The position numbers were made by a program, and so were the translations under genes. The notes beneath the pieces were generated by a model, which was given only the letters and a program-made list of their open reading frames with translations, searched no databases and had not been told where the DNA came from. Source: Blasia pusilla (taxonomy: Eukaryota). From it: 64,000 bases of DNA. The stretch lies in assembly GCA_050084515.1 (NCBI GenBank), contig CM114271.1:10788001-10852000 (forward strand). Direction: 5' to 3'. Positions 5,966-48,670 of this stretch are shown piece after piece; the first letter of the stretch is position 1; each line of letters begins with the position of its first letter.

Positions 5966-8900
5966 ATGGATAATTATGTTAAGCTCACTTGTGGCAGTCA
6001 TCTGGCGGCCCTTCCTCAATCAGAAATCATTCGACCCCAAGCTCGTGAGTCTTTCATAGCAGTGGATGAAAATTTTCTGTCTGTTCGATTTCTTCTCCAA
6101 ATTGAAACCATCTTTGTATCCAAAGATGTTAGGGTGGATGGTACGGAAGACATAATAGGTGAGACGGTCCAGCCAGTGATCTCAGACCGTAAAGTATGGA
6201 ATCTCCTATCTCTAGCAAATGGTCAATACAGAGTTTACGACCTGCCCCTGAATTCGTCTGTTTCCCAAGTAGACGGTCTAGAATTTCCTAGTGCTCCGAG
6301 CTCTACGTTTGCAACTCCAAGCTCTGCAGATCCGGCGTCGACTCCAACTTCGCACGCTCGTAATAATGTTGTTCATCCTGAAGAGATCCCGGATGTTATC
6401 AACCTCAATGGATCTGTCGGACACCAATCGGGCCCTCTGTCCGCCTACTCATTCCTCTTGCGAGTATCAGGCAATAGTTTGCTTTCGTCTCTGGCCTTGA
6501 AAATGTTCAAGCACATTCTTGTCGACAAGCTGCCGCCCACATACGATGGTAATTGCATTTTTGAGTTGCCTCCACTTGTTGCTCCTGCTCAAAAGAAGGA
6601 TGGAGGACGCCTGAAGGGTATGGACAGAAAGTCTGATTGTCATCGATGGTGCAGGCTTCAACGGACCAGTGCTTCCATTCCAGATGGTCCTTGGATTGTC
6701 TCCCACCGCCAATGCGTGGGAGCCTTGGAGTATAGAAGTCCAGCATGCTCGTATCTAGAGCGCAACGGGCGAGTCAATACGTCGCAATTCCCTCCCAAGA
6801 ATGCAGAAACTCCATACGAGGTTGGTGCCACCATACCGCCGGGAGGCCATCGATGTCCTCATTGTGAGGCATCGCCCTTCTGCGTTGGAGCGTGTCTTGC
6901 ATACATATTTTTCATTGTCCACGACTTGGGCTCCACGCCGAGTATACAAGGTGGCGGTTCATGTTGGCTCCCACACTCATCCTGTGACCGATGCAATTCA
7001 AAGACACATCAAGGAGGATGTGGCGAAGAAAGTAGCCGAGGTCTACAGAAACTCTCCGGGTTCAAAGCGCGGAGTGATCAAGCTCACAACGGCATCACAA
7101 ATTTGTGAACAATTGCTTGGAATCCCTGGACAGAGCGAGATCACGGCGGTTGAGGAGAAACAACTCTGGGAAAATCTCGCATTTCTCGATGATCCTGAAT
7201 GCTTCTGGAATTTGCTGCGTCAAATACGAGTTCTGGATGGAAAGATGGCCGAAATGGATGCCATCGCCAGAATCAAGGCCAACTCCAGATTTCCATTCAT
7301 TCAGAGGCGAGGGATCCAGGGCCTATGTCTTCAAAATCTCAACCATAGGTCCGTCGAGTTGCCTCGATCTTATAGATTGAATGAGGGAAGGGGAAGATCT
7401 TTACGGGAGCTGGGTAAGCTTTGATATTTGCTACAGAGTGCTGAACGGATGGTTGACGATGGGTGCTCACGTTTATGACCATGTGGAGAAGGGACTCAAA
7501 ACTATATTTGTCTGTGAAGTAAAGCAGAAGACGTTGGCAGTTTGAAGATGTGCTGGTTACTCTTATTGGAGGTGGTGAAGGAAAACAAAAGGCCACCTCC
7601 GGAAATTTATGGGTTCATGGCGGACAATGCATAACCTGGGTGGATTGCTATCCGGGAAGTGTTATGGGGTGGAGAGGTTCCACCGGAGAGGGAAAGGTCG
7701 GATGCTTTCCATTGGCATTGGATCAGTGACCCAGTACACCAAATCTTGCATCAAGGAGAATAAGAGGACAGAGCATGTCACTCTACTCCAACGCTGCAAG
7801 GACAGCAAAACCTTGAAGCAGGCCATGGAATGCCAGGAAGAACTTCATGGGTGGTGGAGGAAGCATGCGATTTAGGGGAAGTACAAAGAGTTGTGCTCTT
7901 GGTTGAGTTGGTGGACTGTACGTATGAGACAATGGGGAAACTTCATGCGGCAGGTGAGTTCACTATTTTGTCTTGTGAAGCTCACGTTGAGAATTGTTTG
8001 TAAAGATGTAGCTCAGGGTGAGAAGCGTGGGAACTATATGGATTTCAAACCCAAGAAACCAAGCAAGCTGTCGGATGCGACGGGTTGCCCGAGTGTGCAA
8101 CCCGACGGAAACTGACGGGTTGCCCGAGTGTGCAACCCGACGGAAACCGACGGGTTGCCCGAGGGTGCAACCCTATGGAAATCAACGGGTTGCATCCAGA
8201 TTTTTGGTGCAACCCGAGTGTGCAACCCGTCGGGACCCGACGGAAACCGACGGGTTGCCCGAGGGTGCAACCCTATGGAAACCAACGGGTTGCATCCAGA
8301 TTTTTTGTGCAACCCGAGTGTGCAACCCGTCGGGACCCGACGGGTCACAGAGTTGTTCATGGGATGCCTCGGCCTTGCAACCCGTCGGGTACTGACGGGT
8401 TGTAGTAGGTGGGTTTAAGGTTACAACACGTCGGTACCCGACGGGTCGCAGAGTCGTTCATGGGATGCCTCGGGCCTGCAACTCGTCTAGTTTCGACAGG
8501 TCGCTTATTTCTTTGACTCCTGAGTTATTTTCGTTCCCTTCTAACATTGCCGTCGTTGCAGGGATTGAACGTTCATGAAAATGCCCTTTGCCCCAACACA
8601 AGTGGAGTAGAAAGTGTTCATTCCTCCTGGAGGTCGTCACAAGCATGCCAACGAATTTCACTTGTGGAGGCATGCCAAAAAGACCAGGCAAGAGCAATGC
8701 TACAGTCTGCAGCATCCCATATCTTCCTCACAAAAGGCATAACAAAAGGAAAGGGGTCGTCGATCTACGAGCTCTATGTTCGGGCGGCTGTGAGATCTGG
8801 TGATGAAAAAATGTATGTGGAAGCCTTCAACCGGTGCGTAGCTCGAACTCCACTCGAGCAAGACGTACACATTGGTGGGGATATTCGTGGGCGGGTTTCA

Positions 8901-10051
8901 AGACGTCCCATACAGATGGTGGTAGAGCAGTCCGAGCGAGACTCTTGGAGACCAGATAAGTATCTTGACTTCAGGCAGGTGAAGAGGCAACATCGGTGAT
9001 TGATTTGGATGAGGAAATTACGCCGCCCAGGTATTCGGGGACCCCGGACCCGTCCCAAATCCGTGATGGAGTTACTTCTCCAAAATCAGTGAATGTTTTA
9101 TTTCAAAAGCCCTCCGTCGCTGGAAGTTCGCAACATCCTGTCACTGGGGTGGTTCAACAATATGGGATTCTGGTAATGGAGGTGGATTGCAACCTAAAAC
9201 GGTGGCATATATCTCGGAGCAACCCAGGACGTGGACCCACCTGCAGGGCAGAATCTGATGGCATTAGGAGAGCATGCGGAACTTTCCTAAATAAGAACTG
9301 TACAAGGATTGGACGACCACTGCTTGGGTTTTGGGGACTCAAAACCTTTGATCGTTTCACGAGGACCGGGGATCAATTGAAGTACTTCTTCTGCCCAAAT
9401 GAATCTTGCGCTTTCCGGAAGTCTTATCCGGCTGCCATTGGAGCTCCCGAGAATACCCCCACGATTTGGCCCATCGCCGCAGGTACGAACTGCACTCAAG
9501 ACGAAGTGGACAATCTCACAAGTTCCAGTTTCAGACTCGTACACGGGGGAAGTTCGGAGCATGTTCGCATTACACAGACCTTCACATTTCGTATTCAACC
9601 CAAGATTGATGTCAACATGTACCCGGAGAAGGTGGATGATCTCAATCCATTATTTTTGTTTGAGTCTAGAAATGGGGTGAAGAGAAACAGAATGTGCAGG
9701 CCAACGGTGGAGAGAGCAAAGCAAATTGCATCAGCTCGGGAGGGAAAAATGGAGATCATCGCCACGAAAGATGTCTTGAGTGGCAATGGAATAGGAAGGA
9801 TGTATTGGGTCAGGAACAACACTGTAAATTCAAGTGTCACAAGGGTGTATGTGGTGCACATCTGTTGGTTTCCCACATGTTCACGTGATGACTTTGTCCA
9901 AAGAGAGACAAGTGGCAAAAGGTATTTCCCTTGTAAGCACATGTACTATGTGTTGCTGGTAGTTTTAAGAGAGTCGGAGGTAGGAGTAGGAATCCACCAA
10001 CCAATTCTGTCCCTCAAAGAAGTTCGAAGTATTTTAAACAAACCACTTTGA
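5966..10051 (+). pseudogene. Mutator-family DDE transposase with N-terminal Cys/His zinc region and C-terminal SWIM finger; one intron (7954-8561); frameshifted
   Basis: WVSFDICYRV (D1), GFMAD (D2), DAFHW, NTSGVESVH (E), SWIM-like C..DDF..PCKHM; CAG|GTGAGT donor at 7954 and TTGCAG acceptor ending 8561. Confidence 0.8.
8075..8490. repeat. Intronic cluster of GCAACCCGTCGG / CCGACGGGTTGC palindrome units
   Basis: e.g. TGCAACCCGTCGGGACCCGACGGG at 8321 and TGCAACCCGTCGGGTACTGACGGGTTG at 8376, inside the transposase intron. Confidence 0.9.
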
Positions 10052-10532
10052 GGATGCAAAATGAGGTTTTAGATTGTACTTTTATTTTTTTCTCAACCTT
10101 CACTTTGATCTTGAACTCTATTCAGCCCCGGGCAAATGAAAGATTTTTTCCAGACCTTGGATGGAAAAAGTGATTGGTTCCACACTTATGATTCCACTGA
10201 TTTTTCAGTTTTCTAAATTTTGTGCAATTTGCAACTCGTCGGACTCAGAGGGGTTGCCAAAATATGGAAGAGGAAAAAAAAACTGTGGGACTGCTTAATA
10301 TATGAACAAAAAAGTGCAAAAAAATTTAAACAAAAATTTTCCTCTCTTCAACCCAACGGAAACTCTGTTCAAAAAAAATATCTATTGCGGTTGAAGGTAG
10401 TTTCCTCTCTCCTCTCTCCTCTCTTCCTCTCCTCTTACTGCACCTCGTTGGATCCCCCTAACTCTAGATAGAAAATATCACATCTCCTTGACAAAACCTA
10501 CTACCCTATACATATCCATCGTCCGATGGGAA

Positions 10533-32745: not shown

Positions 32746-33784
32746 ATGGATGTCCCACCTAACCCTCCCTACTGGGGGAAAAATGCTCATCATCTCGCAC
32801 CCATAGGCAATCCTCCACACAGCTTTGGACCTAGAACAAGCAGGTTACCATTACAACATCCAGAACAGATCAGAGCTCGTGATTCCAAACTTTGGGATCG
32901 GGAGCAAGTCCTTATGGGACATTCTAGAAGTGACCGGATGAGATGTCCTTGTGCAGCTTGCAATGGGTCTCGTACACTGGCCTTGCGGAATGTTTTCACT
33001 CACCTTCAGAAACATGGAAGGCATCCAGAAAAAAGAGTTTTTGGAGTTCTAGGTGATGAGGACTCGTTCAATGAAGAGTGGAGGTCCGCATCGAACATTG
33101 CCAATGTGGCTAGACATGCACAATTTTTGGGACAAGCAATAGGCAACCTTGATGTGCGAGATGGAGGTGAGGCAGGTACCACACACGAGGAGTTTGAAGA
33201 AAATAACCGTGATGATGGGATTGATGCTGAAGGTGATAGTGTTGATCATGGGATTGATGTGCAAAAAATGGTCCGTGACATCTTCCAAGATCTTGATGCA
33301 TTTTATGATGATGTTGAGAGCATGGAAGACCTCACTGATGCAGCCAAAGAGGCTGGAGAGGACGCAGACAATATTGGGCAAGAAGAGGACGAGAAAGCAT
33401 GGATGTTTGGGTCGCATGAAACTGTTGCTGATGCATGCAGGCCTCTGTTCCATGGCTCTAAGTGTACAAAGTTGGCCTTTGTACTCATATTGATGAACAT
33501 CTGTGGGAATCATGGTGTCCCAGCGGTGCTTGTTTCAAGGTTACTTGCATTCTTGAAGACAACAGTCTTTCCTATTGGGAACACGACTCGTGGAAATAAG
33601 TACGAGGCAACTAAATTATTGTCAAGTCTTGGATTGAATTACAATTCCATTCATGCTTTCCATGATGGCCATGTGCTCTTCAGAGGAGAGCATGCAAATT
33701 GATCAAGTTGCGCGGTATGTGGACAACAAAGGTATAGGAATGTGGGCAAGTCCATGTAGCCTACAAAGGTACTTTGACATTTTG
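32746..33784 (+). pseudogene. CACTA transposase, 5' part (transposase-associated Zn domain and start of Tnp2)
   Basis: MRCPCAACNG...FTHLQKHG; ACRPLFHGSKCTKL; LGLNYNSIHAF..GHVLFRGEHAN; ends KVL*HF at the Mutator-like insertion. Confidence 0.85.
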
Positions 33785-34186
33785 GAGGTGCGGTAAGAGG
33801 AGAGAGGAGAGAGGAAACTACCTTCAACCGAAAGAGATACTTTTTTTTAAGAGAGTTTCCTGTGATTTGAAGAGAGTTTCCATTGGGTTGAAGTGAGGAT
33901 ACTTTTTGTGTGAATTTTTTTGCACTTTTGTGCTAAGTTCTTAAGCACTCCCACAGTTTTTTTTTCCTCTTCCATATTTTGGCAACCCCTCTGAGTCCGA
34001 CGAGTTGCAAATTGCACAAAATTTAGAAAACTGAAAAATCAGTGGAATCATAAGTGTGGAACCAATCACTTTTTCCATCCAAGGTCTGGAAAAAATCTAT
34101 CATTTACCCTCGGCTGAATAGAGTTCAAGCTCAAAGTGAAGGTTCTGGAAAAATGAAAGTACAGTCTAAAACCTCATTTTGCATCC

Positions 34187-37100
34187 TCAAAGTGGTTTGT
34201 TTAAAATACTTCGCACTTCTTTGAGGGACAGAATTGGTTGGTGGATTCCTACTCCTACCTCCGACTCTCTTAAAACTACAAGCAACACATAGTACATGTG
34301 CTTACAAGGGAAATTCCTTTTGCCACTTGTCTCTCTTTGGACAAAGTCATCACATGAACATGTGGGAAAGCAATAAATGTGCACCACATACACTCCTGTG
34401 ACACTTGATTTTACAGTGTTGTTCCTGAACCAATACATCCTTCCTATTCCATTGCCACTATGGACATCTTTTGTGGTGATGATCTCCATTTTTGCCTCTT
34501 GAGCTGATGCAATTCGCTTTGCTCTCTCCACCGTTGGCCTACACATTCTGTTTCTCTTCACCCCATTTCTAGACTCAAACATAAATAGTGGATTGAGATC
34601 ATCCACCTTCTCCGGGTACATGTTGACGTCAATCTTGGGTTGAATACAAAATACAAAGGTCTTTGTAAAGCAAACATGCTCTCAACTTCCTCCGTCTACG
34701 AGTCTGAAACCGGAACTTATAAGATTGTCCACTTCGTCTTGAGTGCAATTCGTACGTGCGGCGATGGGCCAAATCGTGGGGGTATTCCCTGGAGCTCCAA
34801 TGGAAACCGGATAAGACTTGCGGAAAGCGCAAGATTCATTTGGGCAAAAGAAGTACTTCAATTGATCCCCGGTCCTCGTGAAACGATCAAAGGTTTTCAG
34901 TCCCCAAAACCCAGGCAGTGGTCGTCCAGTCCTTGCACAGTTCTTATTTAGGAAAGTGCTGCATGCTCTCCTAATGCCATCAGATCATGCCCTGCAAGTA
35001 GGTCCACGTCTCGGGTTGCTCTGAGATATATGCCACCGTTTCAGGTTGCAATCCACCTCCATGACCGGAATCCCATATTGTTGAACCATCCCAGCGACCG
35101 GATGTTGCGAACTTCCAGCAACGGAGGGCTTTTGAAATAAAAAATTCACTGATTTTGGGGAAGTTACTCCATCACGGATTTGGGAGCAGTTCGGTGTCCC
35201 CGAATACCTGGGCGGGATAATTTCCTCATTCGAATCAATCACCGGACTCGTTCCTCGATGCTGCCTCTTCACTTGCCTGAAGTCAAGATACTTATCTGGT
35301 CTCTACGAGTCTCACTCGGACTGCTCTACCACCATCTATATGGGACGTCTTGAAACGCGCCCACAAATATCCCCACCAATGTGTACGTCTTGCTCGAGGG
35401 GAGTTCCTGCTACGCACCAGTTGAAGGCTTCCACATAGAGTTTTTAATCACCAGATCTCACAGCCGCGATGACATAAAGCTCGTAGATCGAAGGCCCCCT
35501 TCCTTTTGTTATGCCTTTTGTGAGGAAGATATGGGATGCTGTAGACTGTAGCATTGCTCTTGTTGGCATGCCTCCACAAGTGAAATTTGTTGGATGCTTG
35601 TGCTTGAGGAATGAACACTTTCTGCTCCACTTGTGTTGGGGCAGAGGGCATTTTCATGAATGTTCAATCCCTACAACGATGGCAATGTGAGAAGGGAACG
35701 AAAATAGCTCACAAGTCAAAAAAATAAGCTACTTGTCAAAACCAGACGGGTTGCAAGGCCAAGGCATGAACGACTCCACGACCCGTCGGGTCCCCACATG
35801 TTGCAACACCCAGGAACCACCTATTGCAACCCGTCTCATTTCGACGGGTGGCAAGAACCTTTGGCCGCTCCAGGCTGGAAGATCCAAGTGCAAGTCATCC
35901 GAAACCCATCCAGATTGAACTATTTGCAGGCCTTGTATACATGCGACTTGCATACTTGTATACGGGTTGTACCAAAATTCTTGATGCAACCCATCTGTTT
36001 CCGACGTGTTGCACACTCGGGAAACCCGTCTGTTTCCGACGGGTTGCACACTCGGGCAACCTGTTGCATCGGACAAGTTGCTTGGTTTCTTCGGTTTGAA
36101 ATCCCTATAGTTCCCACGCTTCTCAACTTGAGCTGCAACTTTTCAAACAATTCTCAGCGTGAGCTGGACAAGACGAAATAGTGAACTCACCTGCCACATG
36201 AAGTTTCCCCATTGTCTCATACGTACAGTCCACCAACTCAGCCAAGAGCACAACTCTTTGTACTTCCCCTCAATCACATGCTTCCTCCACCACCCATGAA
36301 GTTCTTTTGGAATTCCATGGTCTGTTTCAAGGTTTTGTTGTCCTTGCAGTGTTGGAGCAGAGTGACATGCTGTGTCCTCTTATTCTCCTTGATGCAAGAT
36401 TTGGTGTATCGGGTCACACTCTGTTGCCAATGGAAAGCATCCAACCTTTCCCTCTTCGGTTGAACCTCTCCACCCCAGAACACTTCCCTGATAGCAATCC
36501 ACCTAGTTTGTGCATTGTCCGCCATGAACCCATAAATTTTCGGAGGTGGCCTTTTGTTTTCCTTCACCACCTCCAATAAGAGTAACCAACACATCTTCAA
36601 ACTGCCAACGTCTTCTGCTTTTACTTCAAAGACAAATATAGTTTTGTGTCCCTTCTCCACATGGTCATAAACGTGAGCACCCATTGTCAACCATCCGTTC
36701 AGCACTCTGTAGCAAATATCAAAGCTTACCCAGGTGCCGTAAAGATCTGCCCCTTCCCTCATTTGATCTATAAGATCAAGGCCACTCGACGGACCTATTG
36801 TTGACATTTTGAACACATAGGCCCTGGATCCTTCCCCTCCTTGGCCCATGAATTGCCAGCTCTGAATGAATGGAAATCTGGAGTTGGCCTTGATTCTGGC
36901 AATGGCATCCATTCCGGCGGTCTTTCCATCCAGTACCTCTATTTGACGCAGCAAATTCTGGAAGCATTCAAGATCAGCGAGAAATGCGAGATTTTCCCAG
37001 AGTTGTTTCTCCTCAGCAGCCGTGACCTCGCCTTCTATAGGGATTCCAAGAAATTGTTCACAAATTTGTGATGCTGTTGTGAGCTTCATCACTCCGGGCT

Positions 37101-38202
37101 TTGAACCCGGAGAGTTTCTGTAGACCTTGGCCACTTTCTTGGCCACATCCTCCTTGATGTGTCTTTGAATTGCATCGGTCACAGGATGATTGTGGGAGCC
37201 AACATGAACTGCCAGCCTTATGTACTCTGACGTGGAGCCCAAGTCATGGATAATGAAAAATATGTATGCAGGACACGCTCCAACGCAGAAAGGGGATGCT
37301 TGACAATGAGGACATCGATGGCCTCCCGGCGGTATGGTAGCACCGATCTCATATGGAGTTTGTGCATTCTTGGGGGGGAATTGCGACGTATTGACCCGCT
37401 CGTTGCGCTGTAGATACGGGCATGCTAGACTTCTACACTCCAAAGCTCCAATGCATTGGCGGCAGTAGACAATCCAAAGACCATTTGGAATTGAAGCACT
37501 AGTCCGTTGAATCCTGCACCATCGATCACAATCAGACTTTCTGTCCATACCCTTCAAGCGTCCTTCATCTTTCTTTTGAGCAGGAGCAGCAAGTGGAGGC
37601 AACTCAAAAATGCAATTACCATCGTACGTGGGTGGCAGCTTGTCGACAAGAATGTGCTTGAATATTTTCAAGGGCTGAAACGATAGCAAACTATTGCTTG
37701 ATACTCGCAAGAGGAATGAGAAGGCAGACAGAGGGCCCGATTGGTGTCCGACAGATCCACTAAGGTTAACGACATCCGGAATGTCTTCAGAAAGTACAAC
37801 ATTGTTACGAGCATGTGAAGTTGGAGTCGATGCCGGATCTAGTGAGCTAGGAGTTGCAAACATAGAGCTCGTTGCGCTAGGAAATTCTCAACCGTCTATT
37901 TGGGAAACTGAGGAATTCAGAGGCAAGCCGTAAACTCTATATTGACCATTTGCTAGAGGTAGGAGATTCCATACTTTATGGTCTCCAATCACAGGCTGGA
38001 CTATCTTACCTATAATGTCCTCCGTACCGTCCATCCTAACATCCTTGGATACAGAGATAGTTCCAATTTGGAGAAGAAATCGAACTGAGAGAAAATTTCC
38101 ATCCACTGCTATGAAAGACTCACGAGCTTGCGGTCGAACGATTTCTGATTGAGGAAGGGCCGCTAGATGACTACCACAAGTGAGCTTCACATAATTATCC
38201 AT
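34187..38202 (-). pseudogene. Mutator-family DDE/SWIM transposase, copy 2; intron 36190-35671
   Basis: 529-aa ORF with WVSFDICYRV, GFMADNA, LDAFHW; SWIM CSCDDF..PCKHM; paralogous to 5966-10051. Confidence 0.85.
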
Positions 38203-38389
38203 TCCCAGAAGATTCCACCGGGAGGAGACTAAGAATAAGAATGAGGATAAAAATGGGATTGGGAATGAGAATGATAATGAGAATGTTTAATTTATATTGA
38301 ATAGGGACTCGGATTCTCTTGACAAAATTTGACTGACAGGATGAAGTTTGGTAGGTGAGAATGTCTGACATGATGGATTCAATTCTGCT

Positions 38390-39330
38390 GCAACCTGACG
38401 GAGTCCGATGGGTTGCAGGATTTGGGAATCAGAGACGTGGGTTGCGAAGCACCCACTTCTATTTTTTGTTTCCGTGTCCCAATGCAAGTTGGAACCCGTC
38501 GGAGTTCGATGGGTTGGTACCCCCTTCTTGCCAACCAATGGTCTTTTGAGTCGATTTTGCTAGCATCAAACACAAGACATCGCTTGCATTTGCAAAGGAA
38601 ACCAATCGTTGGGGACTTTTGCAGGATTGTCCAACTCAGGGTAGATGTTGTGACCCGTCCGATTGCTAAGGGTTGCCTCGGAACTATGCATTGTCGCATT
38701 GTTACCCGAGGGATAGAAAAGCGTGCAACCTGTCCTGGTACCTCACCTATTACCCCAAGATAAGCGAAGCGTGCAACCCGTCGGCCTCTGACGAGTTGCG
38801 CAGGTACCGCGCCTTCTTGCCCAAAGACAGCGGAGGCGCGCAACCTGTCCGCCTCAGACGAGTTGCGCAAGTGCCTCGACTTGTAACGCTTACATGAAGG
38901 AAGCGTGCAACCCGTCGGCCTCCGACGAGTTGCACGGGTGCCCCGCCTTCTTGCCCAAAGACGGCGGAGGCGCGAAACCCATCGACCTTAGACGGGTTGC
39001 GCAAGTGCCTCGCCTTGTAACGCTTACATGAAGGAAGCGTGCAACCCGTCGGCCTGTGATGAGTTGCGCGGGTGCCCCGCCTTCTTGCCCAAAGACGGCG
39101 GAGGCGCGCAACCCGTCGGCCTCAGACGGGTTGCGCAAGTGCCTCGCCTTGTAATGCTTATATGAAGGAAGCGTGCAACCTGTCGGCCTCCGACGAGTTG
39201 CGTTGGTAGCCCGCGTTCTTGCCTGAAGACAGCGGAGGCGCGCAACCTGTCGGTTTCTGATGGGTTGCCAGGAGGACGGATGCCAGGAACCTGCGGAAAG
39301 TGTGCAACCCGTCGGAGCCGTTGGGTTGGT
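38390..39330. repeat. Intergenic palindrome array including about four 134-bp tandem units with two palindromes each
   Basis: Units recur at 38890, 39024 and 39158; e.g. GTGCAACCCGTCGG-CCT-CCGACGAGTTGCAC at 38905-38935. Confidence 0.9.
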
Positions 39331-40859
39331 GTTTTTCACGTCCAGACTTCCATAATGGCCGAAATGTCGCCGTCGGAATGACGATGCGACCCAACGGTCA
39401 GCCCAACGGCTCGAAAAGTAGAAATAGCCGAGGGTTCGCTCATTTCCGATTTTTTGTTTCGCGATCTCAATTGCTCTTCTATGCAGCGGTTGACCAGATA
39501 CCAAGGGGCGCTTTACACCGCGACTCATTGCGAGACGATTCGAGCAAACGATCGCAAGACGATTCGAGCTACTCATCAAGCCGACTCATCGCGACATTAG
39601 CAAGGGGACTCCTCGAGGCGACTGATCGTGCATAGAAAGCAATTTCCTTGTCCATAGGAGGCATTTTTGGGAACAATGACGAGGAAAAAAACTCAAGCAA
39701 GAAAGGTTGGGAGCTTCACTCCCAAGGGTGGAAGAACTCCTGCGTCACCATCTCCAGGGCCTCGTTTGGCCAATGAGATAAGGCAGCAAGAAATCGAGGA
39801 GTGGGAAAGGGAAGCAGAGATGCACAAGCAGGAGCTTCTTGGAAAACGTATTAAGGAGGCGCTCGAAAAATAGAACGCAGAGGCTGAGGCGTCGAAGTCC
39901 TTGAAGAAAAGGATCGCCGATGAAAAGCGTGAGAAGAAGCATCTGGACGTGTCGATGAGGAGAGCAGAATTGGAAAAAGCTCAAAGGGAAAAAGCGATTG
40001 CCATTGAAGAAAGCCCGGCCCGTCCAACCGAAAGTGTTGAGATGCAGGAAATGTCCCTGATGAAGTCCGGGGACACAATCAATATAGCGAAAACGCACAA
40101 AGTTCAAATGACGGACGATGAGGTCATGAGGACCGCCAGCGTGGAGATGGTGGACATCGCTGAAGAATCAGGAGAGCGGTCTTCCTCGTCTCTTAGCCCG
40201 GCGGAAGAAATCGACCTCTATCGGATCGACGAGTTTCCAGTGGACTTGCCAACTGCTGTCCCAGAGTAGTTGGCTGGCCAAAACACCGACATAATCTTCG
40301 AGCGGGTAAGAAACGATCTTGGATCTTTGAGTTATGTAAAGGGCCATGTTGCAATTCATTGGCAATTCAATGTAGTTTATTGACTTTGTCCCCATTGTGA
40401 TAGGTGGTAAAGCAGATGGCACTGATGGAGGCCAGAACGCCCCGATTGCGGACAATGGAGTACGTCCGCAAAATTCAGTCTGACGAGGATATCACGAAGC
40501 TGAAACAATCGGCAGTGACAACATCCTACGTCAACAGCTTCCCTCCGTTCTATGTTCAGCCTTACAATGAACATGGAACCCAAGCGAAGGAGGACCTGGA
40601 AGCGCTCGACACATTCTGGAGGATGAGAGATCAGGAATTCAGAAGGGCGATTGAGGGGACGGAATTCAGTTGGATGCAGAACCTGTATTTCTTCATCTGG
40701 GATGGAAACCACAGGTTCATGGCGTGGACTCAGTTTGCAGAGGAGCGCCCAAACTCATTGGAGGCGCATTTTTGCGTGAAGGCATTCGTGTTACATCCAT
40801 ACCCTCATCACATGGCGACGGTGGAGATGGCAATGCTTGCCATGAACACGTAAGTTTCC

Positions 40860-41680
40860 TCTTGCCGTCAGACTCCGACAACTTGTTTGACTCGCCACTT
40901 TTTTTGGCATGTTTTTGGCCGAAAGAAACTCGTCGAAGTCCGACGAGTTGCTCGACTGGCCGCTGTTTTAGGATTTTTTTGGCCGAAAGCAACTCGTCGG
41001 AGTCCCACGAGTTGTTCGACTGACCACTGGTTTAGGATGTTTTTGGCCGAAATCAACTCGTCAGAGTCCGACGAATTGCTTGACTGGACGCTGTTTTAGG
41101 ATGTTTTTGGCCGCAAGCAACTTGTCAAATTCCGACGAGTTGTTCGACTGACCATTGGTTTAGGATGTTTTTGGCCGAAAGCAACTCGTCGGAGTCCGAC
41201 GAGTTGCTCGACATGCTGCTATTTTTGGATGTTTTTGGAAGAAAGCAACTCGTCGGAGTCCGAGAGTTGCTTGATTGGCCGCTGTTTTTGGATGTTTTTG
41301 GTCGAAAGCAACTCGTCTGAGTCCGACACGTTGCATTCGCCGACACGGGAAGGTAATCGGAGTAGATGAGTTTGATTTTTGGCGTCAAAATGCAGCTTTA
41401 ATTGAAATTGTGCAACCTATCGGACTCCGATGGGTTGATATGTTCACTTTTCTTGCCGAGACAACTCTCTAAATACAAATTATCTAACAACCCGTTGGAG
41501 TCCGGCGGGTTGAAACCAGACAATCATAAATCTGAATGCAATCCGTTGGACTCCGATGGGTTGCAAGAAAAGTGAACATATCAACCCATCGGAGTCCGAT
41601 AGGTTGCACAGTTTCAATTAAAGCTGCAATTTGACACCAAAAATCAAACTCATCTACTCCGATTACCTTCCCGTGCCGGT
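40860..41680. repeat. Intronic ~65-bp tandem palindrome units followed by a ~115-bp-arm foldback
   Basis: AGCAACTCGTCGG-AGT-CCGACGAGTTGCT at 41180-41208; 41343-41457 is the reverse complement of 41562-41677. Confidence 0.9.
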
Positions 41681-43149
41681 ACACCATCCTCCGTGAATGG
41701 TCATTCTGGGACGCGTTGGGGCTTCTCAGGAAGTCCATGCTCGTGGGTCTCCAAGCGGAGCTGAAAAGAATAGAGCTAGTTCCGGAGGAAGCAAACCTGG
41801 AGAGTGCTGAAGATTTTGAACTTTGGCTGGATGACATGTGGGACAAGCCCATAAAATCTCAGGCTTCAAGACGACGTTCAAGGATCGCATCCTCCCTCAG
41901 GCTGACCTTGATGAAGAAATAGAGGCGAAGAAAAGTGATTTCCCAAAGAAGAAGTGAGATCTTCAGGAGTAGGCGGCCGATGCATCTTGACTAAGAGCTG
42001 CCCAACAGATGGTGTTCAGGTACCTCGTCCATTGTAAGAATGTAGGTACATGGCGAAAAATACTGGCAGCCTGCAAACTGTGGGCTTCTCCGCCTGATGG
42101 AGAGACATTTTCCATGTATGACATGGAGATGGCTCAAAGCATGTCCGACTGGGAGGTGGATAATTGTCCAATCTGGCTGGACTTCAACGACCCTGAGGAC
42201 ATAACCGAGAAAAATCTAGGCTTGCTCTATGATGCAGTGACTGCAAGTAGGGACGACATCCCCAATTTTGTGCAAGCTGAAGACTTTTTCGAAGAAGATG
42301 CGGAGGAGCAAGCCCTCGAGACAGCGGAGTTGGTGTCCAAGGTCATCACCGCCAAGGACAAATCTACAGCGGGTCTCAAAGCCAAGGCGAGGGGATGGAA
42401 GAATTCTGAGGCCGAGTCTTCCCAAAGAGAGGCTGAGAATTCAAGGCAAGAGCTGGAATAGTCCGGGCGAGAGGGGAGAGAGGGTCGGACCAGGTCCTCC
42501 GCAAAAAAACTCGACCAGAGTCTGAGGTAATAGAGACCCCAACAAGCCGATCGCAGACTCGGGAGAAGCGGAAGCGAGAGGCGTCAGGGTTGTCCCAGGG
42601 AGCATACCAGGATGTGGAATACACTCCATCATCCCTGGGAAGACATAGAGAAACAACGACTCGGACAAGCGTCATCATTCAGTGCAGTAATCTTCTGGAT
42701 GAGCTGAAAAGTTTCAGTTCACAAGCGTCAAAACCCGCCATCGAGAAATTGACAACGCTGGGACGGAAGCTTCAATGAAACGGGAATGCTCCTTGGACGG
42801 TCCATGGGGAGATCGAAGAGGTGGTGGTGGATCTCCTCTTCGCTGATTTGCCCTCGGGGTTGCGCTTGTGGGACGAGATCCGTCCGACGGAGTTCCAGAC
42901 TAGAATGTCCCTCTTTCTTATGACCAGATCATGCTCATGTTTTCCTTTGTAGACGCTTATCTCAGTGACAGGGGTTGTTTCTTAGTTTTGACTGGAGGGA
43001 GCGAGGACGAGCTCTTCAACCTCCAGTGCATCAAGAGGTCGCTGAAGTGGAGGACGGCGGAATCGTGGGTCATCAAGAACGAGTACCCACTCCAATCCGC
43101 GATGAGTCAAATCCGGGTAAGTGCTCTAAATCCATATCCAAATTGTCTT

Positions 43150-43480
43150 TCTCCGACGGGTTGCATCTCTGCATGCAACCCGTCGGATTGTTTGAGCTGG
43201 AGACTTCGGTGGTGCAATCCATCTAAAAGCGACGGGTTGCAAATTTACCGTAAGTCTCCATTGGGTGAATGCAACCCGTCGGAACCCGACGGGTTGCAAG
43301 TGCTTATGTTTTTTCCTTGTGTTTCTGGAATGTTGCAACCCGTCTGAAAGCGACGGGTTGCTCTTAGCCAACCATGGGTGCTCTAAGCCAGCAACATGTC
43401 GCCTTCCGACGGGTTGCTCATGGACAAAAAAATCACAAGACACTCGTAAAACAACCCGTCGGACTCTGACAGGTTGCTCC
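43150..43480. repeat. Intronic palindrome cluster
   Basis: Perfect TGCAACCCGTCGG-AAC-CCGACGGGTTGCA at 43270-43298 plus several variants. Confidence 0.9.
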
Positions 43481-45974
43481 AATGTTAGGATTATAACGAA
43501 GTTCTCAGGGGTTAAGCGAAGTTCTTTGGGGACATGTTGCACATTATGTCACCATACTGAGAGTAGACTAGTGGTCAAGTAGCTCTTTCTTGTTGCTGAC
43601 ATTGTTTCCAACGTGCTTCTTTACAGATGGACCACTCCTATGTTTACTGCTTTGTTCGGCCCGAGCACAACTTCCAGGTGTTTAAGATCCTAGATCCTAT
43701 CGATCCATGCTCCAATGGGTACAGCTTAGATAGTTTATACAATTCCCGCCCCCGAGAATTTACATGCAAGACAGTACCCCCTTACTTGGAGGAAGGGAAA
43801 AGTCGCCAGCCTTGATGCAAATGCTCATCGAGCTCTGCTCAAGGCCGGGTGACTTGGTGTTTGACTTAGTGGGCCTTTTAGGGGCGAGTATCAGAGGCGC
43901 CTCACAGAGTGGCAGGAACATTCTCTGCCTTGAGGGAAGGCAGCAACTGTTTGACCTTTGCAAAGAGGCAAAGGCAGATTACGACAGGCTAGTTGGGGCG
44001 TACAACTCTCCTCCGAAGCCGAGAGCTCCGATTCCAGACCCACCATTGGTAGTGACACCATCGTCACTTCCCACGATTCCAAAAATTGGAAGGGCAAGGC
44101 CGACAGTAATTCTGGAAGAGCTCTTGGACGATGACGAGTGAGTTCAAAGAACTCAAGGACCCATTTATTTGATGATGAGGCAAAAGAATTCATAGAATAG
44201 ATCAAATGTACAGTTCCGAGCTTCTTTCAGATGTAATAAAGGACAAGATTTTTTCGAACGATGATGGTGTTTGTAAAAGTTTGTTGAATATCTTTTTTGG
44301 TCTTGTCGAATGTGATCGTCTATGTACTCCGAGGACTTCTATTTTGCAACCCGTCGGATTTCCACGGCTTTCAACTTTTCACTTTTTGACCACTGCACCT
44401 TTTTAACCACTTCTAGGCAACCTGTCGAATTCCGACACGTTGGCTGCGTGAGTGATCAGACTCTTTCCCTATTGGTCCAACTTTAGAGATATTTTTGCGG
44501 GCTTCTTCACTTTGGCACCTTCCCCTAGTATTGTCAAACAAGGCGTAGGCTTCTTCTCTTCTCTAAGACGTGTTGGATTCCTACTACCTGTTGGATTGCC
44601 ATCATGGTATTTCCAAGGGCCGGAGCACATATTGATCTTTGGATGGGTGTCACATTGCAAAGCGTGCACAAGATATCTTGCCAAGGAAGGCGGTGGGACT
44701 CAAATCAGGTTACATGGGGCCGTTATGGTGTACCTAGGGGGTGCAAGGCTCTCCAATTCGCCAACATTTTCGATCCCCGTCTACAATCGACGAGAGGAGC
44801 CACTTGTATCCCAGGACATTCCTGTTGTACAGGAACCTAGGAGAGTTAGGAGTAAATTTGTAGATGACGAGGCTGAAGAAATCATAGACTAGATCAAATG
44901 TACATTTTCGAGCTTCCTTCGAGATGTTTTCAAACGATAATGGTGTTTGTAAAAGTTTGTTGAATATGTTTTTTGGACTTGTCGATTGTGTTTGTCTAGC
45001 TACTCAGAATTTTTATTTTGCAACCCGTCTGATTCTGACGGGTTGCAACTTTTCACTTTTTGACCACTGCAACTTTTCAACCCTTTCCAGGCAAGCTGTC
45101 GGATTGCGACAAGTTGGCTGCTTGAGTGATTGGACTCTTTCCTTGGGAGACCAAATTCTGAGGCATTGTGGTGGGCTTCTTCACTTTTGGCTCCTTCCCC
45201 TAGTATCGTCAAACCAGTCTTAGGCTTCTTTTCTTCTCTAAGACGTGTTGGATTCCTATAACCTGTCGGATTGCCATTTTGGATTCCCAAACAGTTGGAT
45301 TTTCGTGGGTGCAGGGTGGAATGGAATCAAATTCCATTCCACCCTGCACACTTCTCAAAATATTTCCTTTGTTATGGTGAGCTTGCTTGCAAGGGGTGCA
45401 AGCCATCTGATTCCGACAGGTTGCAAGAGTTCGAACCTGTTAAATTCCGACGGGTTGGGAGGGGTGCAGCTTCTCTGTTTATCAGATTTAGGATCTGAAT
45501 GAAGGGACATCAATTCCTCTTTACTCCAGACAGCTAACAATCTTTTGGTTTAATTATCATCTCCTGTGTTCACATTTCACAAAGTTGGTCTTTATTTGAA
45601 CCTTTCATTGAGATGAGATTGCTACTTCTGGTCAAATTATTTGCCAATGGTCCTCCAACAAAAATACCCTTGGGCACAGCTTACTGTAGACTGAGACAAG
45701 CAATTTGAAGAAACTTAGGCTCACATAGAGAGTGATGGAAATTTTTTTGTAGTGGTCTTATGATGTCTACTTGTTTTTCGCCCCCTGGAAAAAGGAGGTT
45801 TCTTTAGGCCCGAATGTGGACCACTACCTACTCTCTTCTAAAGATTTCATGAATTTGAAAGCAAACAAAAATTTCAAATATGTCAAAAAGTTTTGAAGAG
45901 AGGAGGCGGATTTGGCCCTTTTTTTTTAAGAGAGACTCTCCTCTCTTCCTCTCTCCTGCCAGAATACCAACCCC

Positions 45975-48670
45975 GACATTTTGAAATCATTCCTAGATTG
46001 AAACGGATGTACAGGAGCCTAAATATTTCAAAGTTATGACTTGGACAGCCAAGAACAAGAGTATCAATGACCTACAGTGGCACATCGGAGATTCAGAACA
46101 TTGGAGATTCATCAATCAAAGATGGGCAGAGTCTGCAAGAGAGACAAGGAATGTGAGACTTGGCCTCTCAACCGATGGAGTCAATCCATTCGGAGACAAG
46201 AACAATGTATATTCTTGCTGGTCTGTAACCATGCTGAATTACAACCTCCTTCCGTGGTTGACTACTAAGAAGTTTTTTGTCATATTGGTTTTGCTTATCA
46301 CGGGCCCACAATCTGCTCTTTCTACGAATATAGACGTTTGGATAGCTCCTCTTGTGGATGAATTGAAGCGCTTGTGGTACGAGGGCATTTGGATCCATGA
46401 TGTGGTGCAACGGGTTGGGAGACCAAACTCATTCAGTCTAAAAGCCCAATTGGTATTGACTTTGGGAGATTATCCAGCCCACAACATGATTTCCGGTCAG
46501 GCAACAAAGGGGTATTTGGCTTGTACAGCATGTGGCTCCAATTTCACTGGTGAGCATTCCAGACCTTTGAGGAGCATGAAATACATTGGACATCGACGCT
46601 TCCTCCCACTTGATCATCCTTACAGACATAGGGCATTACACTTAGTTCAATTCAACAATGCCCGAGAGCTTCGTGATCCACCTCCACGAGTCACTAAAGA
46701 GCAGATTTTGGATTGGGGACACCAAAAGACCACATACGACATGGAAAGAGGCACACGTGGGGGTTTAGAGGGGGGACCGGAACGCCAATATACAGAAGCT
46801 CCAAATGCTCAATGGGATTCAGGATAGAGATATGGTGTGAAATGGCAACGCATATTGGATGTGGAGTTGGACTACTGGCGGGTAATCTATGTCACCCATC
46901 CGCTCAAACGCAATGTCTACTATTTGCCACACCAGATGCTTTCAAGAATTTAGGCTCGTTTATCATCCATTTGTACTCATGGTTGGCATATGTGGTGTAA
47001 TAGGAGTTTGACCCTAGCAAACATAATCTAGACGTAATACATATTGATAAAAATGTATGTGAGAGCCTATTGAGGATCCTTTATGGGGAGAAGGACATAG
47101 AAATAGTGCGATTGGATCTCCAAGAGAGGAGAATACGTTCTCAATTGTGGTTGAAGGATGATGAGAACAAACCCAATGTGATATTGAAATACCACTCACC
47201 TTATGTTTGCACAGACACAGAGTGGAGAACATTTCTTTCGAGGCTTCAATCTTTGAGAGTTCCAACCGGCTGTGCAAGAAAGCATGTAAAAAACAAGAAA
47301 CTCGATAGTATGAAGACATACAATTATTATGTGCTTATGCAATAGATTCTGCCTGTATGCTTAAGGGGATTGATGCAGAAGCCGGTTCGTAATGCAATAA
47401 TGCAATTGTGCAAGGTGTTTGGTTGTATATGTGTGAAGGTCTTTGATCCAGCAAGCTTTCCCAAGCTCAAAGATGATATGGCAGAATTATTATGCGATTT
47501 GGAGATCCATTTTCCTCCCGTCTTCTTTGATGTCATGACTCATCTCGTTATCCATGTTGTGGAAAAGCTTGGACAGTACGGGTCTGTTTATACGAGGTGG
47601 ATGTTCCCACTAGAGTGTTTTATGAAAGTCTTGAAAGACCACGTCTTGACAAGATACAGGCCTGAGGCCATCATGGCAATGGGTTACATTTCACACGAGA
47701 CCTTGGGATATTTGACAGAGTATATGACCGGGTTTGAACATGTGAAGGCTAGGATATGGCAAGCGGAGGAAGATGAGTGAGCGGTAGGTGAAGTTCTTCA
47801 AGGCAGAGGTTCCCCATTGCAATTGCCGAGGCATATTTGGCTGATGGCTCATGAATATGTGTTGCAAAACACTAGTATAATGCAACCGTGGTGGAGGTAA
47901 GTAAAGGGTTGAATGACTCAAGCCTACGTGTTGTTGCATTTATTTGGCTTCCTTGTTTTTTTTATGTCGTCGCTCACCAGATACCGGTTGGCTAATAATG
48001 GCATGACCTCTACAGGAAATATAATATGGAGAAAAACGCACATATTGGGGGTGGTGCGGGGGGCTTTCCACCATTCTTAGAATGGATTCGATTGGCGATC
48101 CGGGAGCATTCAGCACTACACCCAAATATGGACCAGGATGTCTATCTTCTGTTTGCTCCACCTCGAATGTCCGTCTTAGCTTACAAGAGAATGCAAGCCT
48201 ATGGAAAGCACTTCCGTGTGGTAGATCAAAATGACGATCATTATGTCACATATGATTCAAGGTTGATATGTGTATTCAAGCAAATGAGCAATCACCAAGA
48301 TAGAGGATGGATGAAAATGGGATACATAGGAGAGCTAACTGACATATGGAAATTGGACTATGGGAACACATCCAATCCTGTCATTCTCATGAAAGGGACT
48401 TGGGTGCGACCAGATTGGCGTGGGGCTAGGGCTACAATGAAGGGTGATAGTGATGGATTCTTACTAGCAAACTTCAGGCAAATACAACTTGAATGGTGTG
48501 AACCTTTTGTATTCCCTAGTCAGGTTGAACAGGCTTTCTTCCTAGATGTGGAGGAATCGGCCGGATGGCGAGTAGTGTGCCACAAGCAGGCGAGGAATCA
48601 TAGGGTATCAAGTAATACTTTGGAGTTCAGTTTAGATGGCCACGGGGCTTTGAAGCTCCCAATAAAATGA
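45975..48670 (+). pseudogene. CACTA transposase, 3' part (Tnp2 core, DUF4218/DUF4216-type regions)
   Basis: RNVRLGLSTDGVNPF, TLGDYPA, GYLACTACG, YIGHRRFLPLDHPYR, FPPVFFDVMTHLVIH, RWMFPLECFMKVLK, EPFVFPSQVEQAFF. Confidence 0.92.

What the first reader, a model, noticed from the sequence alone, without database searches (positions are those of the whole stretch)
33785..45974. Candidate new system: Mutator-like transposon with a divergent ParB-methyltransferase gene and its own palindromic site array
Seen: a 12.19-kb unit with an exact 9-bp TSD and only vestigial terminal similarity. It holds a DDE/SWIM transposase (minus) and a ParB-like/amino-MTase-like gene (plus) head-to-head, with one palindrome in three introns, the spacer and both subterminal regions. 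Known: 9-bp TSDs mark Mutator elements, and Arabidopsis non-TIR VANDAL elements encode VANC proteins that bind element-specific non-coding repeats to counter silencing. Inference: this may be an independent version of that logic built from a prokaryote-type ParB+MTase module that marks or protects its own copies.
Basis: partly seen in the sequence, partly recalled or inferred. Interest (0 to 1): 0.92.

Follow-up and report, generated by a model that had tools for sequence, protein, structure and literature searches.

The report
Liverwort-type Mutator transposon with ParB-methylase gene
This is a decayed copy of a highly repeated plant Mutator-type transposon that carries, next to its transposase, a second gene joining a ParB-like domain to a DNA-methylase-like domain and is studded with one palindrome, a kind of transposon accessory system recently described in algae but apparently not yet in land plants.

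Summary
Window 33785-45974 is a 12.19-kb insertion with an exact 9-bp duplication (GACATTTTG), short imperfect GA-rich inverted ends, a MULE/SWIM-type transposase (minus) and a head-to-head multi-exon gene (plus). That gene's N-terminal exon folds as a ParB N-terminal domain (Z 9.2). Its C-terminal part is colinear with Riccia sorocarpa proteins whose model matches beta-class N6A/N4C DNA methylases (Foldseek E 1e-9). A 27-nt palindrome occurs 25 times in the element, 8 times in a second truncated copy (5745-10444) and nowhere else in the window.

Reads from the same species put the transposase half at 16-40 times flank depth and the cargo exons at about a third to two thirds of that. Many copies therefore carry the cargo. 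This copy is dead: both genes have stops, and the cargo also has frameshifts.

The methylase motif DPPY is replaced by D-L/M-P-S/T-G throughout the family, so canonical catalysis is doubtful.

[quoted passage not shown] So this is a new member (land plant), not a new kind. Binding of the palindromes by the cargo protein remains inference.

The parts
33776..33784 (.). Left copy of the 9-bp target site duplication GACATTTTG
   Evidence: Sequence read directly
45975..45983 (.). Right copy of the 9-bp target site duplication GACATTTTG
   Evidence: Sequence read directly
33785..33825 (+). Left terminus: imperfect GA-rich terminal inverted repeat (about 40 nt)
   Evidence: Aligned with the reverse complement of the right end and with the terminus of copy 2
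45934..45974 (-). Right terminus: imperfect GA-rich terminal inverted repeat
   Evidence: Reads of other copies diverge exactly after 45974, and depth drops there
34187..38286 (-). MULE/SWIM-type transposase gene, decayed. In-frame stops lie at 37888-37890, 34985-34987 and 34682-34684, where copy 2 reads L, E and E
   Evidence: ORF lists. SWIM PF04434 at 34187-34681. The 537-aa ORF 36274-37887 resembles MULE clusters and one homolog, P0094 (E 3.3e-35)
35745..36061 (.). Palindrome cluster between transposase exons; the same cluster is larger in copy 2 (8063-8504)
38390..39313 (.). Spacer between the 5' ends of the two genes, with 10 palindromes. Eight of them sit in a 67-bp tandem array (134-bp higher order, 38766-39268, 88% matches)
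39676..44141 (+). Cargo gene (ParB-like plus beta-class methylase-like), decayed. In-frame TAG at 39871-39873, TGA at 42776-42778 and TAG at 42901-42903; frame changes near 42877 and 43747
   Evidence: Most family reads carry an extra A after 42877 (148 of 218) and lack 2 nt at 43747 (405 of 662)
40404..40853 (+). Exon encoding the ParB/sulfiredoxin-fold domain (WDGNHR motif)
   Evidence: 76 homologs with E up to 1e-3. AlphaFold model pLDDT 86.2. ParB N-terminal domains score Z 9.2, rmsd 2.2 A, 95 residues
40854..41679 (+). Cargo intron 1 (inferred), with a 64-bp tandem array of palindromes (40866-41334) and a 340-bp hairpin (arms 41340-41456 and 41563-41679, 97% complementary)
41991..42461 (+). 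Middle region colinear with the Riccia proteins (RAKRxVFRY ... SMY ... DWE..N.PWW block)
   Evidence: By eye. BLAST did not reach it
42845..42859 (+). Motif IV position of the methylase-like domain: DLPSG in place of DPPY
   Evidence: Translation. Alignment to Riccia D-L/M-P-S/T-G
43117..43626 (+). Cargo intron 2 (GT..AG, phase 0) with 5 palindromes
   Evidence: The exon junction is colinear with the Riccia proteins
43863..43883 (+). Motif I position (SAM loop): DLVGLLG here, DFAGGWG in Riccia
   Evidence: Pfam N6_N4_Mtase E 0.0015 on 43734-44141
44156..45500 (+). About 675-bp tandem duplication holding the acidic C-terminal tail exon and further palindromes (44346, 45020, 45398)
   Evidence: Families D7 and D10-D12
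5745..10444 (-). Second copy of the family in opposite orientation. It holds the transposase half only, at 88-89% identity. The left terminus is at 10444. Homology ends in the spacer and the other end is not in the window

Best explanation
Shown: this is an old, dead copy of a highly repeated Mutator-superfamily DNA transposon. It is inserted in the transposase gene of a CACTA/EnSpm element.

Besides a MULE/SWIM transposase, the family encodes an accessory protein of about 1,100-1,250 aa (length taken from the Riccia homologs). The protein has a ParB N-terminal (ParB/sulfiredoxin) fold near its N-terminus. It has a beta-class (N6A/N4C-type, motif IV before motif I) DNA-methylase fold at its C-terminus.

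The element's non-coding parts carry at least 25 copies of one 27-nt palindrome, partly as 64- and 67-bp tandem arrays. One array lies in the divergent promoter region between the two genes.

Inferred mechanism (about 0.4 on its own): the accessory protein recognises the palindromes as parS-like sites and loads there. It then alters the element's chromatin or DNA state, or shields it, to favour expression or escape from silencing. This is what has been proposed for ParB/methylase accessory proteins of algal transposons and shown for VANC of VANDAL elements.

The catalytic tetrapeptide is D-L/M-P-S/T-G rather than (D/N/S)PP(Y/F/W). The C-terminal domain may therefore act as a SAM- or DNA-binding module, or on another substrate, rather than as a canonical adenine-N6 or cytosine-N4 methylase.
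For: Element borders and TSD.

Mutator features: 9-bp TSD; SWIM finger; MULE look-alike clusters.

High copy number and cargo in many copies (run X15, summed over both directions):
- flanks 31-58;
- transposase exon bins 944-1289;
- cargo exon bins 431-828;
- right terminal bin 503.

ParB fold: model pLDDT 86.2. The top 12 rows are ParB, Noc, KorB or PadC at Z 7.2-9.2. Foldseek's top 8 are ParB or Noc, probability 0.80-1.00.

Methylase fold: the model of a Riccia homolog matches M1.HpyAVI at E 1e-9, then CcrM, M.BceJIV, MboIIA, RsrI, rotifer N4CMT and PvuII; 45 matches have E up to 1e-3. Four window pieces align colinearly to that domain.

Long-term maintenance: 76 relatives of the ParB exon, with W, N and H invariant and D, G and R nearly invariant in the WDGNHR block. 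Fourteen Riccia paralogs of the methylase part share the conserved D-x-P-x-G and DFAGGWG motifs.

Most family reads carry the indels that put this copy's broken frames back in register with the Riccia proteins.

Palindromes are confined to the two family copies.

Family transcripts of both genes are seen at low depth in the sense direction in 3 of 3 RNA runs.

Precedent: PMC12477816 (passages) and 10.1101/2025.02.11.637652 (section 8).
Against: - No experiment or computation here links the protein to the palindrome.
- Only the ParB N-terminal fold was shown. No helix-turn-helix was tested, and Pfam ParBc does not hit.
- Pfam N6_N4_Mtase hits stay below the curated cut-off: 18.9 and 23.7 bits against 26.7. 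Only 4 of 12 Riccia paralogs hit at E up to 0.01.
- The methylase model is weak overall: mean pLDDT 62.3, and the other four models score 36-43.
- Motif IV lacks the second proline and the aromatic residue.
- The palindromes also sit in the transposase half and the subterminal region, which fits transposase binding as well.
- Copy 2 says nothing on cargo because it is truncated.
- Whether the Riccia homologs lie in Mutator elements could not be checked.
Confidence: 0.5

Rival explanations
1. The palindromes are cis sites of the transposase (subterminal and internal binding repeats, as in En/Spm or Ac), or simply self-propagating hairpin minisatellites. The ParB-methylase-like protein acts on something else, or is a pseudo-enzyme with a general anti-silencing or DNA-handling role.
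For: Palindromes lie about 200 bp from the left end and inside the transposase gene, and they are kept in the transposase-only remnant copy 2. Array size differs between copies: 4 palindromes in copy 1 against 7 in copy 2 in the transposase gap. Deletion and rearrangement joints in family reads fall at palindromes, for example 35807 to 43270 (89 reads), 40855 to 41181 and 41208 to 41528. No DNA-reading domain was shown in the cargo protein.
Against: The densest arrays flank and interrupt the cargo gene: 10 palindromes in the spacer and 9 in the two cargo introns, out of 25. The same pairing of a ParB-domain gene with adjacent inverted-repeat arrays is reported across red algal Plavaka families (10.1101/2025.02.11.637652, section 8).
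Confidence: 0.3
2. The cargo is a passenger: a host gene captured Pack-MULE fashion, or a separate mobile element nested in the Mutator element, with no role for the transposon.
For: This copy's cargo is a pseudogene. Some family members lack the cargo (skip of 7462 nt, 89 reads). The cargo bins have lower depth than the transposase bins.
Against: No TSD or inverted ends of its own bound the cargo; the inverted pairs found there are the palindromes themselves. The cargo is full length with its own promoter-side spacer and is colinear over three regions with about 1,200-aa Riccia proteins. It is present at hundreds-fold depth. Its paralogs are multi-copy in Riccia: 14, and 12 named Riccia representatives out of the 19 ParB-exon hits looked up. 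The same architecture rides on Sola1, Plavaka, Zisupton and Mutator elements in algae (papers above).
Confidence: 0.1

Closest known systems
ParB-like plus DNA methyltransferase accessory protein of the Ectocarpus Sola1-1_Ec32 transposon (PMC12477816; passages read)
   Same: One protein of about 1,100 aa with a ParB-like domain and an N4C/N6A-type DNA methylase domain. It is encoded on the strand opposite to the transposase in a large DNA transposon. The authors propose that it binds and epigenetically modifies its own element.
   Different: Other superfamily (Sola1 against Mutator) and other host (brown alga against a plant with liverwort homologs). Sequence relatedness could not be tested because no sequence was on hand. 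No palindrome arrays are mentioned in the passages read. The state of motif IV in the alga is unknown to me.
PAG2 and PAG3 accessory genes of red algal Plavaka (EnSpm) elements, with homologs in Chondrus crispus Mutator elements (10.1101/2025.02.11.637652; section 8 read)
   Same: A ParB-domain protein with tandem arrays of inverted repeats next to its gene, plus an N6-adenine methylase gene, carried by DNA transposons. Self-binding is proposed and the VANDAL analogy is drawn.
   Different: There the ParB domain is fused to a 2OG oxygenase and the methylase to a SET domain, on two genes. Here ParB and the methylase-like domain are on one protein.
VANC anti-silencing proteins of Arabidopsis VANDAL (Mutator) elements (recalled, and as cited in the Bostrychia preprint)
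   Same: A Mutator-superfamily element with weak ends and an accessory protein acting on element-specific non-coding repeats. This is a resemblance of logic only.
   Different: VANC has neither ParB nor methylase domains (recalled). No homology was tested or claimed.
Phage and prophage ParB_N plus N6_N4_Mtase fusion proteins
   Same: Same two folds in the same order. Atlas feature search places such phage clusters next after the plant clusters, at scores 0.82-0.83, which is a lead only.
   Different: No BLAST-level similarity to 50,697 phage records. The plant protein is about three times longer, with a large helical middle part, introns, and a changed motif IV.
MpDN4MT1a/b, beta-class cytosine-N4 methylases of Marchantia sperm (10.1101/2021.02.12.428880; abstract and passages read)
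   Same: A beta-class amino-methylase fold in a liverwort.
   Different: These are host genes acting on genic CG sites. No relation to the transposon cargo was tested, because no sequence was on hand.

Membership tests
Mutator superfamily (MULE) | Target site duplication of 9 bp (8-11) | tested here: met
   Exact 9-bp GACATTTTG on both sides
Mutator superfamily (MULE) | MURA/MULE-type DDE transposase (Pfam PF10551) | tested here: inconclusive
   Pfam finds nothing in the 537-aa ORF even at E up to 10. The Atlas feature search gives MULE clusters first (0.95, 178 of 256 features; all ten best hits that carry a family share a family or clan with the best one). One sequence homolog, P0094, carries no Pfam family.
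Mutator superfamily (MULE) | C-terminal SWIM-type zinc finger | tested here: met
   PF04434, 20.0 bits against a cut-off of 19.6, at 34187-34681 on the minus strand
Mutator superfamily (MULE) | Long terminal inverted repeats | tested here: not met
   Only about 40 nt of imperfect GA-rich similarity. This is as in the non-TIR branch of the superfamily (recalled).
ParB/sulfiredoxin superfamily (ParB N-terminal domain) | Fold of the ParB N-terminal domain | tested here: met
   Z 9.2, rmsd 2.2 A over 95 residues to Caulobacter ParB. The top 12 rows are ParB, Noc, KorB or PadC. Foldseek's best E is 0.013, with no match at E up to 0.001.
ParB/sulfiredoxin superfamily (ParB N-terminal domain) | Sequence-profile match (Pfam ParBc/ParB_N) | tested here: not met
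   No hit for the window exon or for the Riccia proteins. No PDB sequence hit.
ParB/sulfiredoxin superfamily (ParB N-terminal domain) | Conserved G-x-x-R box (GERRxRA in ParB; DGxHR in ParB-like nucleases; both recalled) | tested here: met
   WDGNHR: N and H are invariant, and D, G and R nearly invariant, in 40 sequences. Equating this box with the ParB box is by recall.
Chromosomal/plasmid ParB (parS-binding CTP clamp) | Helix-turn-helix that reads parS, and CTP binding | not tested
   Only the 149-aa exon was folded; the region after it was not modelled.
Beta-class N6A/N4C DNA methyltransferases (Pfam PF01555) | Class I methylase fold with motif IV before motif I | tested here: met
   Tested on the Riccia homolog P0079 (C-terminal 325 aa): Foldseek E 1e-9 to M1.HpyAVI, and 45 matches with E up to 1e-3. 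The window pieces are colinear with it. The model's mean pLDDT is only 62.3.
Beta-class N6A/N4C DNA methyltransferases (Pfam PF01555) | Catalytic motif IV (D/N/S)PP(Y/F/W) | tested here: not met
   DLPSG in the window; DLPTG, DMPSG, DLPSG or DMPTG in all nine aligned Riccia homologs
Beta-class N6A/N4C DNA methyltransferases (Pfam PF01555) | Motif I FxGxG (SAM loop) | tested here: inconclusive
   DFAGGWG in most of the Riccia homologs whose sequence reaches this motif (one reads DFVGEWG, one DFAAGWG). The decayed window copy has the degenerate DLVGLLG.
Beta-class N6A/N4C DNA methyltransferases (Pfam PF01555) | Pfam gathering score | tested here: not met
   18.9 bits (window) and 23.7 bits (P0079) against 26.7. 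Four of 12 Riccia paralogs hit at E up to 0.01. One protein (P0086) carries a precomputed PF01555 label.
Algal transposon ParB/methylase accessory proteins | ParB-like and DNA-methylase domains encoded by a DNA transposon beside its transposase | tested here: met
   for the domains; for the element
Algal transposon ParB/methylase accessory proteins | Sequence homology to the algal proteins | not testable with these tools
   No algal sequence was returned by any search. All named relatives are Riccia sorocarpa.

The most novel reading that the evidence does not exclude
Liverwort-type Mutator elements run a self-recognition system. A ParB-fold protein loads at element-specific palindromes in the element's promoter, introns and subterminal regions. 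Through a non-canonical (D-x-P-x-G) beta-class methylase-like domain it writes or blocks a DNA mark on its own copies. This would help the family reach hundreds of copies. It may also be evolutionarily connected to the beta-class 4mC methylases that liverworts use in sperm.
Probability: 0.2. Interest if true: 0.8.

Novelty: new member of a known kind. Interest (0 to 1): 0.5.

Why it matters
If the accessory protein really targets its own palindromes, this would be a transposon-encoded, sequence-specific self-marking or anti-silencing device in a land plant. It would be built from phage-type parts and would parallel the devices just proposed for brown and red algae, none of which has been tested.

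A family with hundreds of copies, a defined 27-nt candidate site and expressed members gives a concrete binding and modification assay. The conserved replacement of DPPY raises the question whether these proteins methylate at all.

My searches of the held library found no paper that joins ParB, liverwort and transposon on this subject (two papers, both on cyanobacteria). Nor did they find ParB with Mutator-like elements outside the red alga preprint. Supplements of the algal papers, which may list land-plant homologs, could not be seen.

Tried and rejected
- Own genome: none is held, so copies could not be collected. Read laying was used instead.
- No RNA holder was listed among the indexed runs. 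Raw RNA runs were laid, but no RNA joint appeared among the 15 joints listed, and 305 more were not shown. Introns therefore remain inferred.
- Transposase search among longer proteins: none. Among proteins of near length: one unnamed hit.
- PDB by sequence, for the ParB exon and for the Riccia profile: nothing relevant.
- tblastn against phages with the window methylase exon and with P0085: no match.
- Metagenome scan with the exact palindrome: 6 loci, each with one isolated palindrome, four of them with GC 0.61-0.66. There was no similarity to the element beyond the hairpin and no hit to P0079 or P0094. These are chance hairpins.
- The search for related loci with alignment A1 was not run because the alignment has no conserved stretch. 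Viral contigs searched with P0017 and with the window exon: nothing.
- Copy 2 as a test of 'copies without cargo': rejected. It is truncated in the spacer, and its second TSD copy is not in the window.
- Earlier notes of this scan: none for this genome.
- Nested-insertion reading of the cargo: no bounding repeats other than the palindromes.

Full report
**The element.** GACATTTTG lies at 33776-33784 and again at 45975-45983, so the insertion is 33785-45974 (12,190 bp). The left end and the reverse complement of the right end share GxGGTxxGGTA and an 18-19-nt GGAGAGAGG(A)AGAGAGGA core, and little after about 40 nt.

The insertion sits in a CACTA/EnSpm transposase gene:
- Transposase-associated domain upstream (E 0.0011, below cut-off);
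- Transposase_21 downstream (E 7.1e-59);
- DUF4218 (E 6.8e-24) and DUF4216 further on.

Reads confirm the right border independently. RNA reads from another copy leave the window sequence exactly after 45974 (20 reads in X19), and DNA depth falls about 13-fold there.

**A second copy.** Window 5824-10422 matches 33796-38387 in opposite orientation at 87.8% (2,404 nt) and 88.9% (2,085 nt). Its terminus is at 10444 and resembles the left terminus of copy 1. By eye, residual similarity runs on to about 5745 and then stops, in the spacer between the two genes. Its putative 9-bp flank occurs only once in the window. This copy is therefore truncated or interrupted, and it cannot tell whether copies lack the cargo.

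**Transposase (minus strand).**
- The C-terminal ORF has a SWIM finger (PF04434, 20.0 bits, cut-off 19.6).
- The 537-aa ORF has no Pfam family even at E up to 10. Its nearest Atlas clusters are MULE/ZSWIM RNaseH-like families (0.95, 178 of 256 features).
- Only one sequence homolog appeared (P0094, E 3.3e-35, 30% identity).
- Copy 1 has three in-frame stops (37888-37890, 34985-34987, 34682-34684) where copy 2 reads through. Copy 2 changes frame elsewhere (P0094 aligns to it in three frames).
- Between the two copies, third codon positions differ more (0.119) than first and second (0.070, 0.075) in the DDE ORF. There are 47 synonymous and 74 non-synonymous codon differences. This is a weak trace of selection during part of their divergence.

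**Cargo gene (plus strand).** The exon 40404-40853 found 76 proteins at E up to 1e-3 among 1.84 billion representatives (best 3e-18, 34-36% identity). Of 19 representatives looked up, 12 are hypothetical proteins of the liverwort Riccia sorocarpa and 7 are unnamed.

A 40-sequence alignment keeps W72, N102 and H103 invariant. D100, G101 and R104 are nearly so; these residues form the WDGNHR block.

The AlphaFold model (pLDDT 86.2, pTM 0.79) matches ParB N-terminal domains. Foldseek's top 8 are ParB or Noc (best E 0.013, probability 1.00, none at E up to 0.001). VIA-align gives Z 9.2, rmsd 2.2 A over 95 residues to Caulobacter ParB. The first 12 rows are ParB, Noc, KorB or PadC at Z 7.2-9.2, and sulfiredoxins follow at Z 5.4-6.6. 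Pfam's ParB model does not hit.

Full-length Riccia relatives (P0079, 1,207 aa; P0085, 1,244 aa) show the architecture:
- a disordered N-terminus;
- the WDGNHR domain;
- a long middle part;
- then AADCLYLD-L/M-P-S/T-G, LDDRGC and GDIVIDFAGGWGAT.

Four pieces of the window (42782-42898, 42904-43116, 43627-43734, 43734-44141) align to this C-terminal domain in the same order. The ORF 41991-42461 matches the middle block by eye.

A model of the C-terminal 325 aa of P0079 is weak overall but has a core at pLDDT 70-88 (mean pLDDT 62.3, pTM 0.67; the other four models score 36-43). It matches beta-class DNA amino-methylases:
- M1.HpyAVI, E 1e-9;
- CcrM, E 1.9e-8;
- M.BceJIV, MboIIA and RsrI;
- rotifer N4CMT, E 4.1e-7;
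- PvuII, E 9.4e-5;
- 45 matches in all with E up to 1e-3.

Pfam N6_N4_Mtase hits only the motif I end and stays below the cut-off (window 18.9 bits, P0079 23.7 bits, cut-off 26.7). Four of 12 paralogs hit at E up to 0.01.

The catalytic motif is DLPSG in the window (42845-42859) and DLPTG, DMPSG, DLPSG or DMPTG in all nine aligned Riccia homologs. It is therefore a conserved change and not decay of this copy. By recall, loss of the second proline and the aromatic residue argues against canonical N6A/N4C transfer, as in METTL14.

**This copy's cargo is broken.**
- TAG at 39871-39873, in frame with the ATG at 39676.
- TGA at 42776-42778.
- TAG at 42901-42903, where Riccia has W.
- Two frame changes.

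At both frame changes most family reads differ from the window. An extra A follows 42877 in 148 of 218 reads, and 2 nt are absent at 43747 in 405 of 662 reads. Either change puts the frame in register with the Riccia proteins.

**Palindrome.** GCAACCCGTC-N7-GACGGGTTGC, allowing up to 3 mismatches, occurs 33 times in the window: 25 in the element, 8 in copy 2 and none elsewhere.

| Half-site count | Whole window | Element | Copy 2 | Elsewhere | Chance |
|---|---|---|---|---|---|
| Up to 1 mismatch | 68 | 50 | 17 | 1 | 2.55 expected |
| Up to 2 mismatches | 135 | 89 | 25 | 21 (in about 47 kb) | not computed |

The palindromes form a 67-bp array (7.2 units; 134-bp higher order at 88% matches) in the spacer between the two 5' ends. 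They also form a 64-bp array (7.3 units) in cargo intron 1. Departures from the consensus in the element are led by C6>T (19), C7>T (17) and G8>A (14) out of 107. The last two are CpG transitions, as expected for methylated DNA.

**Family size and expression.** Run X15 is a WGS run with the same species label as the best holders. About 1 in 100 of the run was read, and reads at least 88% alike were counted. Depth summed over both directions was:

| Region | Depth |
|---|---|
| Flanks | 31-58 |
| Transposase exon bins | 944-1289 |
| Cargo exon bins | 431-828 |
| Array bins | 167-290 |
| Right end | 503 |

Only 171 of 59,981 laid reads are at least 99% alike. If those come from this very copy, single-copy depth is near 2. 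The family would then have several hundred members, a third to two thirds of them with cargo. This is a rough inference.

A skip from 35807 to 43270 (89 reads, with 15 other letters between) marks a deletion derivative whose two ends lie at palindromes.

In 3 of 3 RNA runs, family reads (mostly 90-95% alike, so from other copies) cover the transposase with the first mate on the plus strand. They cover the cargo 3' part (43500-44999; 4.5-13 deep) with the first mate on the minus strand. This is the sense direction for both genes if the libraries are of the usual stranded kind.

**What is known.**
- Dinatale et al. 2025 (PMC12477816; abstract and passages read) describe a 1,104-aa ParB-like plus DNA-methylase protein. 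It is encoded opposite the transposase of a 21.5-kb Ectocarpus Sola1 element. [quoted passage not shown]
- Petroll et al. 2025 (10.1101/2025.02.11.637652; section 8 and passages read) describe Plavaka accessory genes PAG2 (N6A methylase plus SET) and PAG3 (ParB plus 2OG oxygenase). Tandem inverted-repeat arrays lie beside PAG3, and homologs occur in Chondrus Mutator elements. They make the VANDAL comparison.
- Iyer et al. 2016 (PMC4738411; passages read) note ParB-HTH-fused Dam-type methylases in chlorophytes and chytrids.
- Marchantia has host beta-class 4mC methylases (10.1101/2021.02.12.428880; abstract and passages read). Any relation to this cargo is untested.
- My searches for ParB with liverwort and transposon found two papers, both on cyanobacteria. 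Searches for ParB with Mutator-like, Plavaka or Chlamydomonas returned only the two algal papers.
- Supplements were closed.

**Verdict.** It is best filed as a land-plant, Mutator-borne member of the recently recognised class of transposon ParB/methylase accessory systems, with a conserved non-canonical motif IV. The self-binding mechanism is plausible but untested here.

Noticed in passing
window 5745-10444: Second, truncated copy of the same Mutator family in opposite orientation (88-89% identity). Its palindrome cluster in the transposase gap (8063-8504) is larger than in copy 1: 7 palindromes against 4.
   Followed up: yes
window 41340-41679: A 340-bp hairpin (117-nt arms, 97% complementary, 106-nt loop) inside cargo intron 1, itself carrying palindrome copies. 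It looks like a young foldback insertion or duplication.
   Followed up: partly
window 44156-45500: A tandem duplication of about 675 bp (79-89% identity) that repeats the acidic C-terminal tail exon (FxDDEAxE) of the cargo. Most family DNA reads (332) and RNA reads diverge from this copy after 44150-44163.
   Followed up: partly
window 31548-32513: A 321-aa open frame with a BRCT domain (PF12738, E 6.8e-5; PF00533, E 1.7e-4) just upstream of the CACTA transposase exons. It may be a CACTA accessory gene or a host gene fragment.
   Followed up: no
window 40443-40479: A 36-nt stretch of the ParB exon is covered by 35-49 RNA reads in each of three runs. These reads continue into unrelated sequence on both sides, so an abundant unrelated transcript shares this short stretch.
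   Followed up: no
window 10565-11686 and 1771-2292: Retrotransposon remains on the minus strand: an integrase core (PF00665, E 1.4e-14) next to the terminus of copy 2, and a CCHC-knuckle-like frame near 2000. The whole window is a nest of transposons.
   Followed up: partly
window 1-5000 and 10000-20000: Strong negative GC skew (-0.15 to -0.26 in most 2-kb windows) with GC 0.44-0.54 in the first 5 kb and again at 10-20 kb. It is unexplained.
   Followed up: no
window 35807 and 43270: Family reads join these two points (skipping 7,462 nt, 89 reads, with 15 other letters between). This is a common internally deleted derivative whose breakpoints lie at palindromes.
   Followed up: partly
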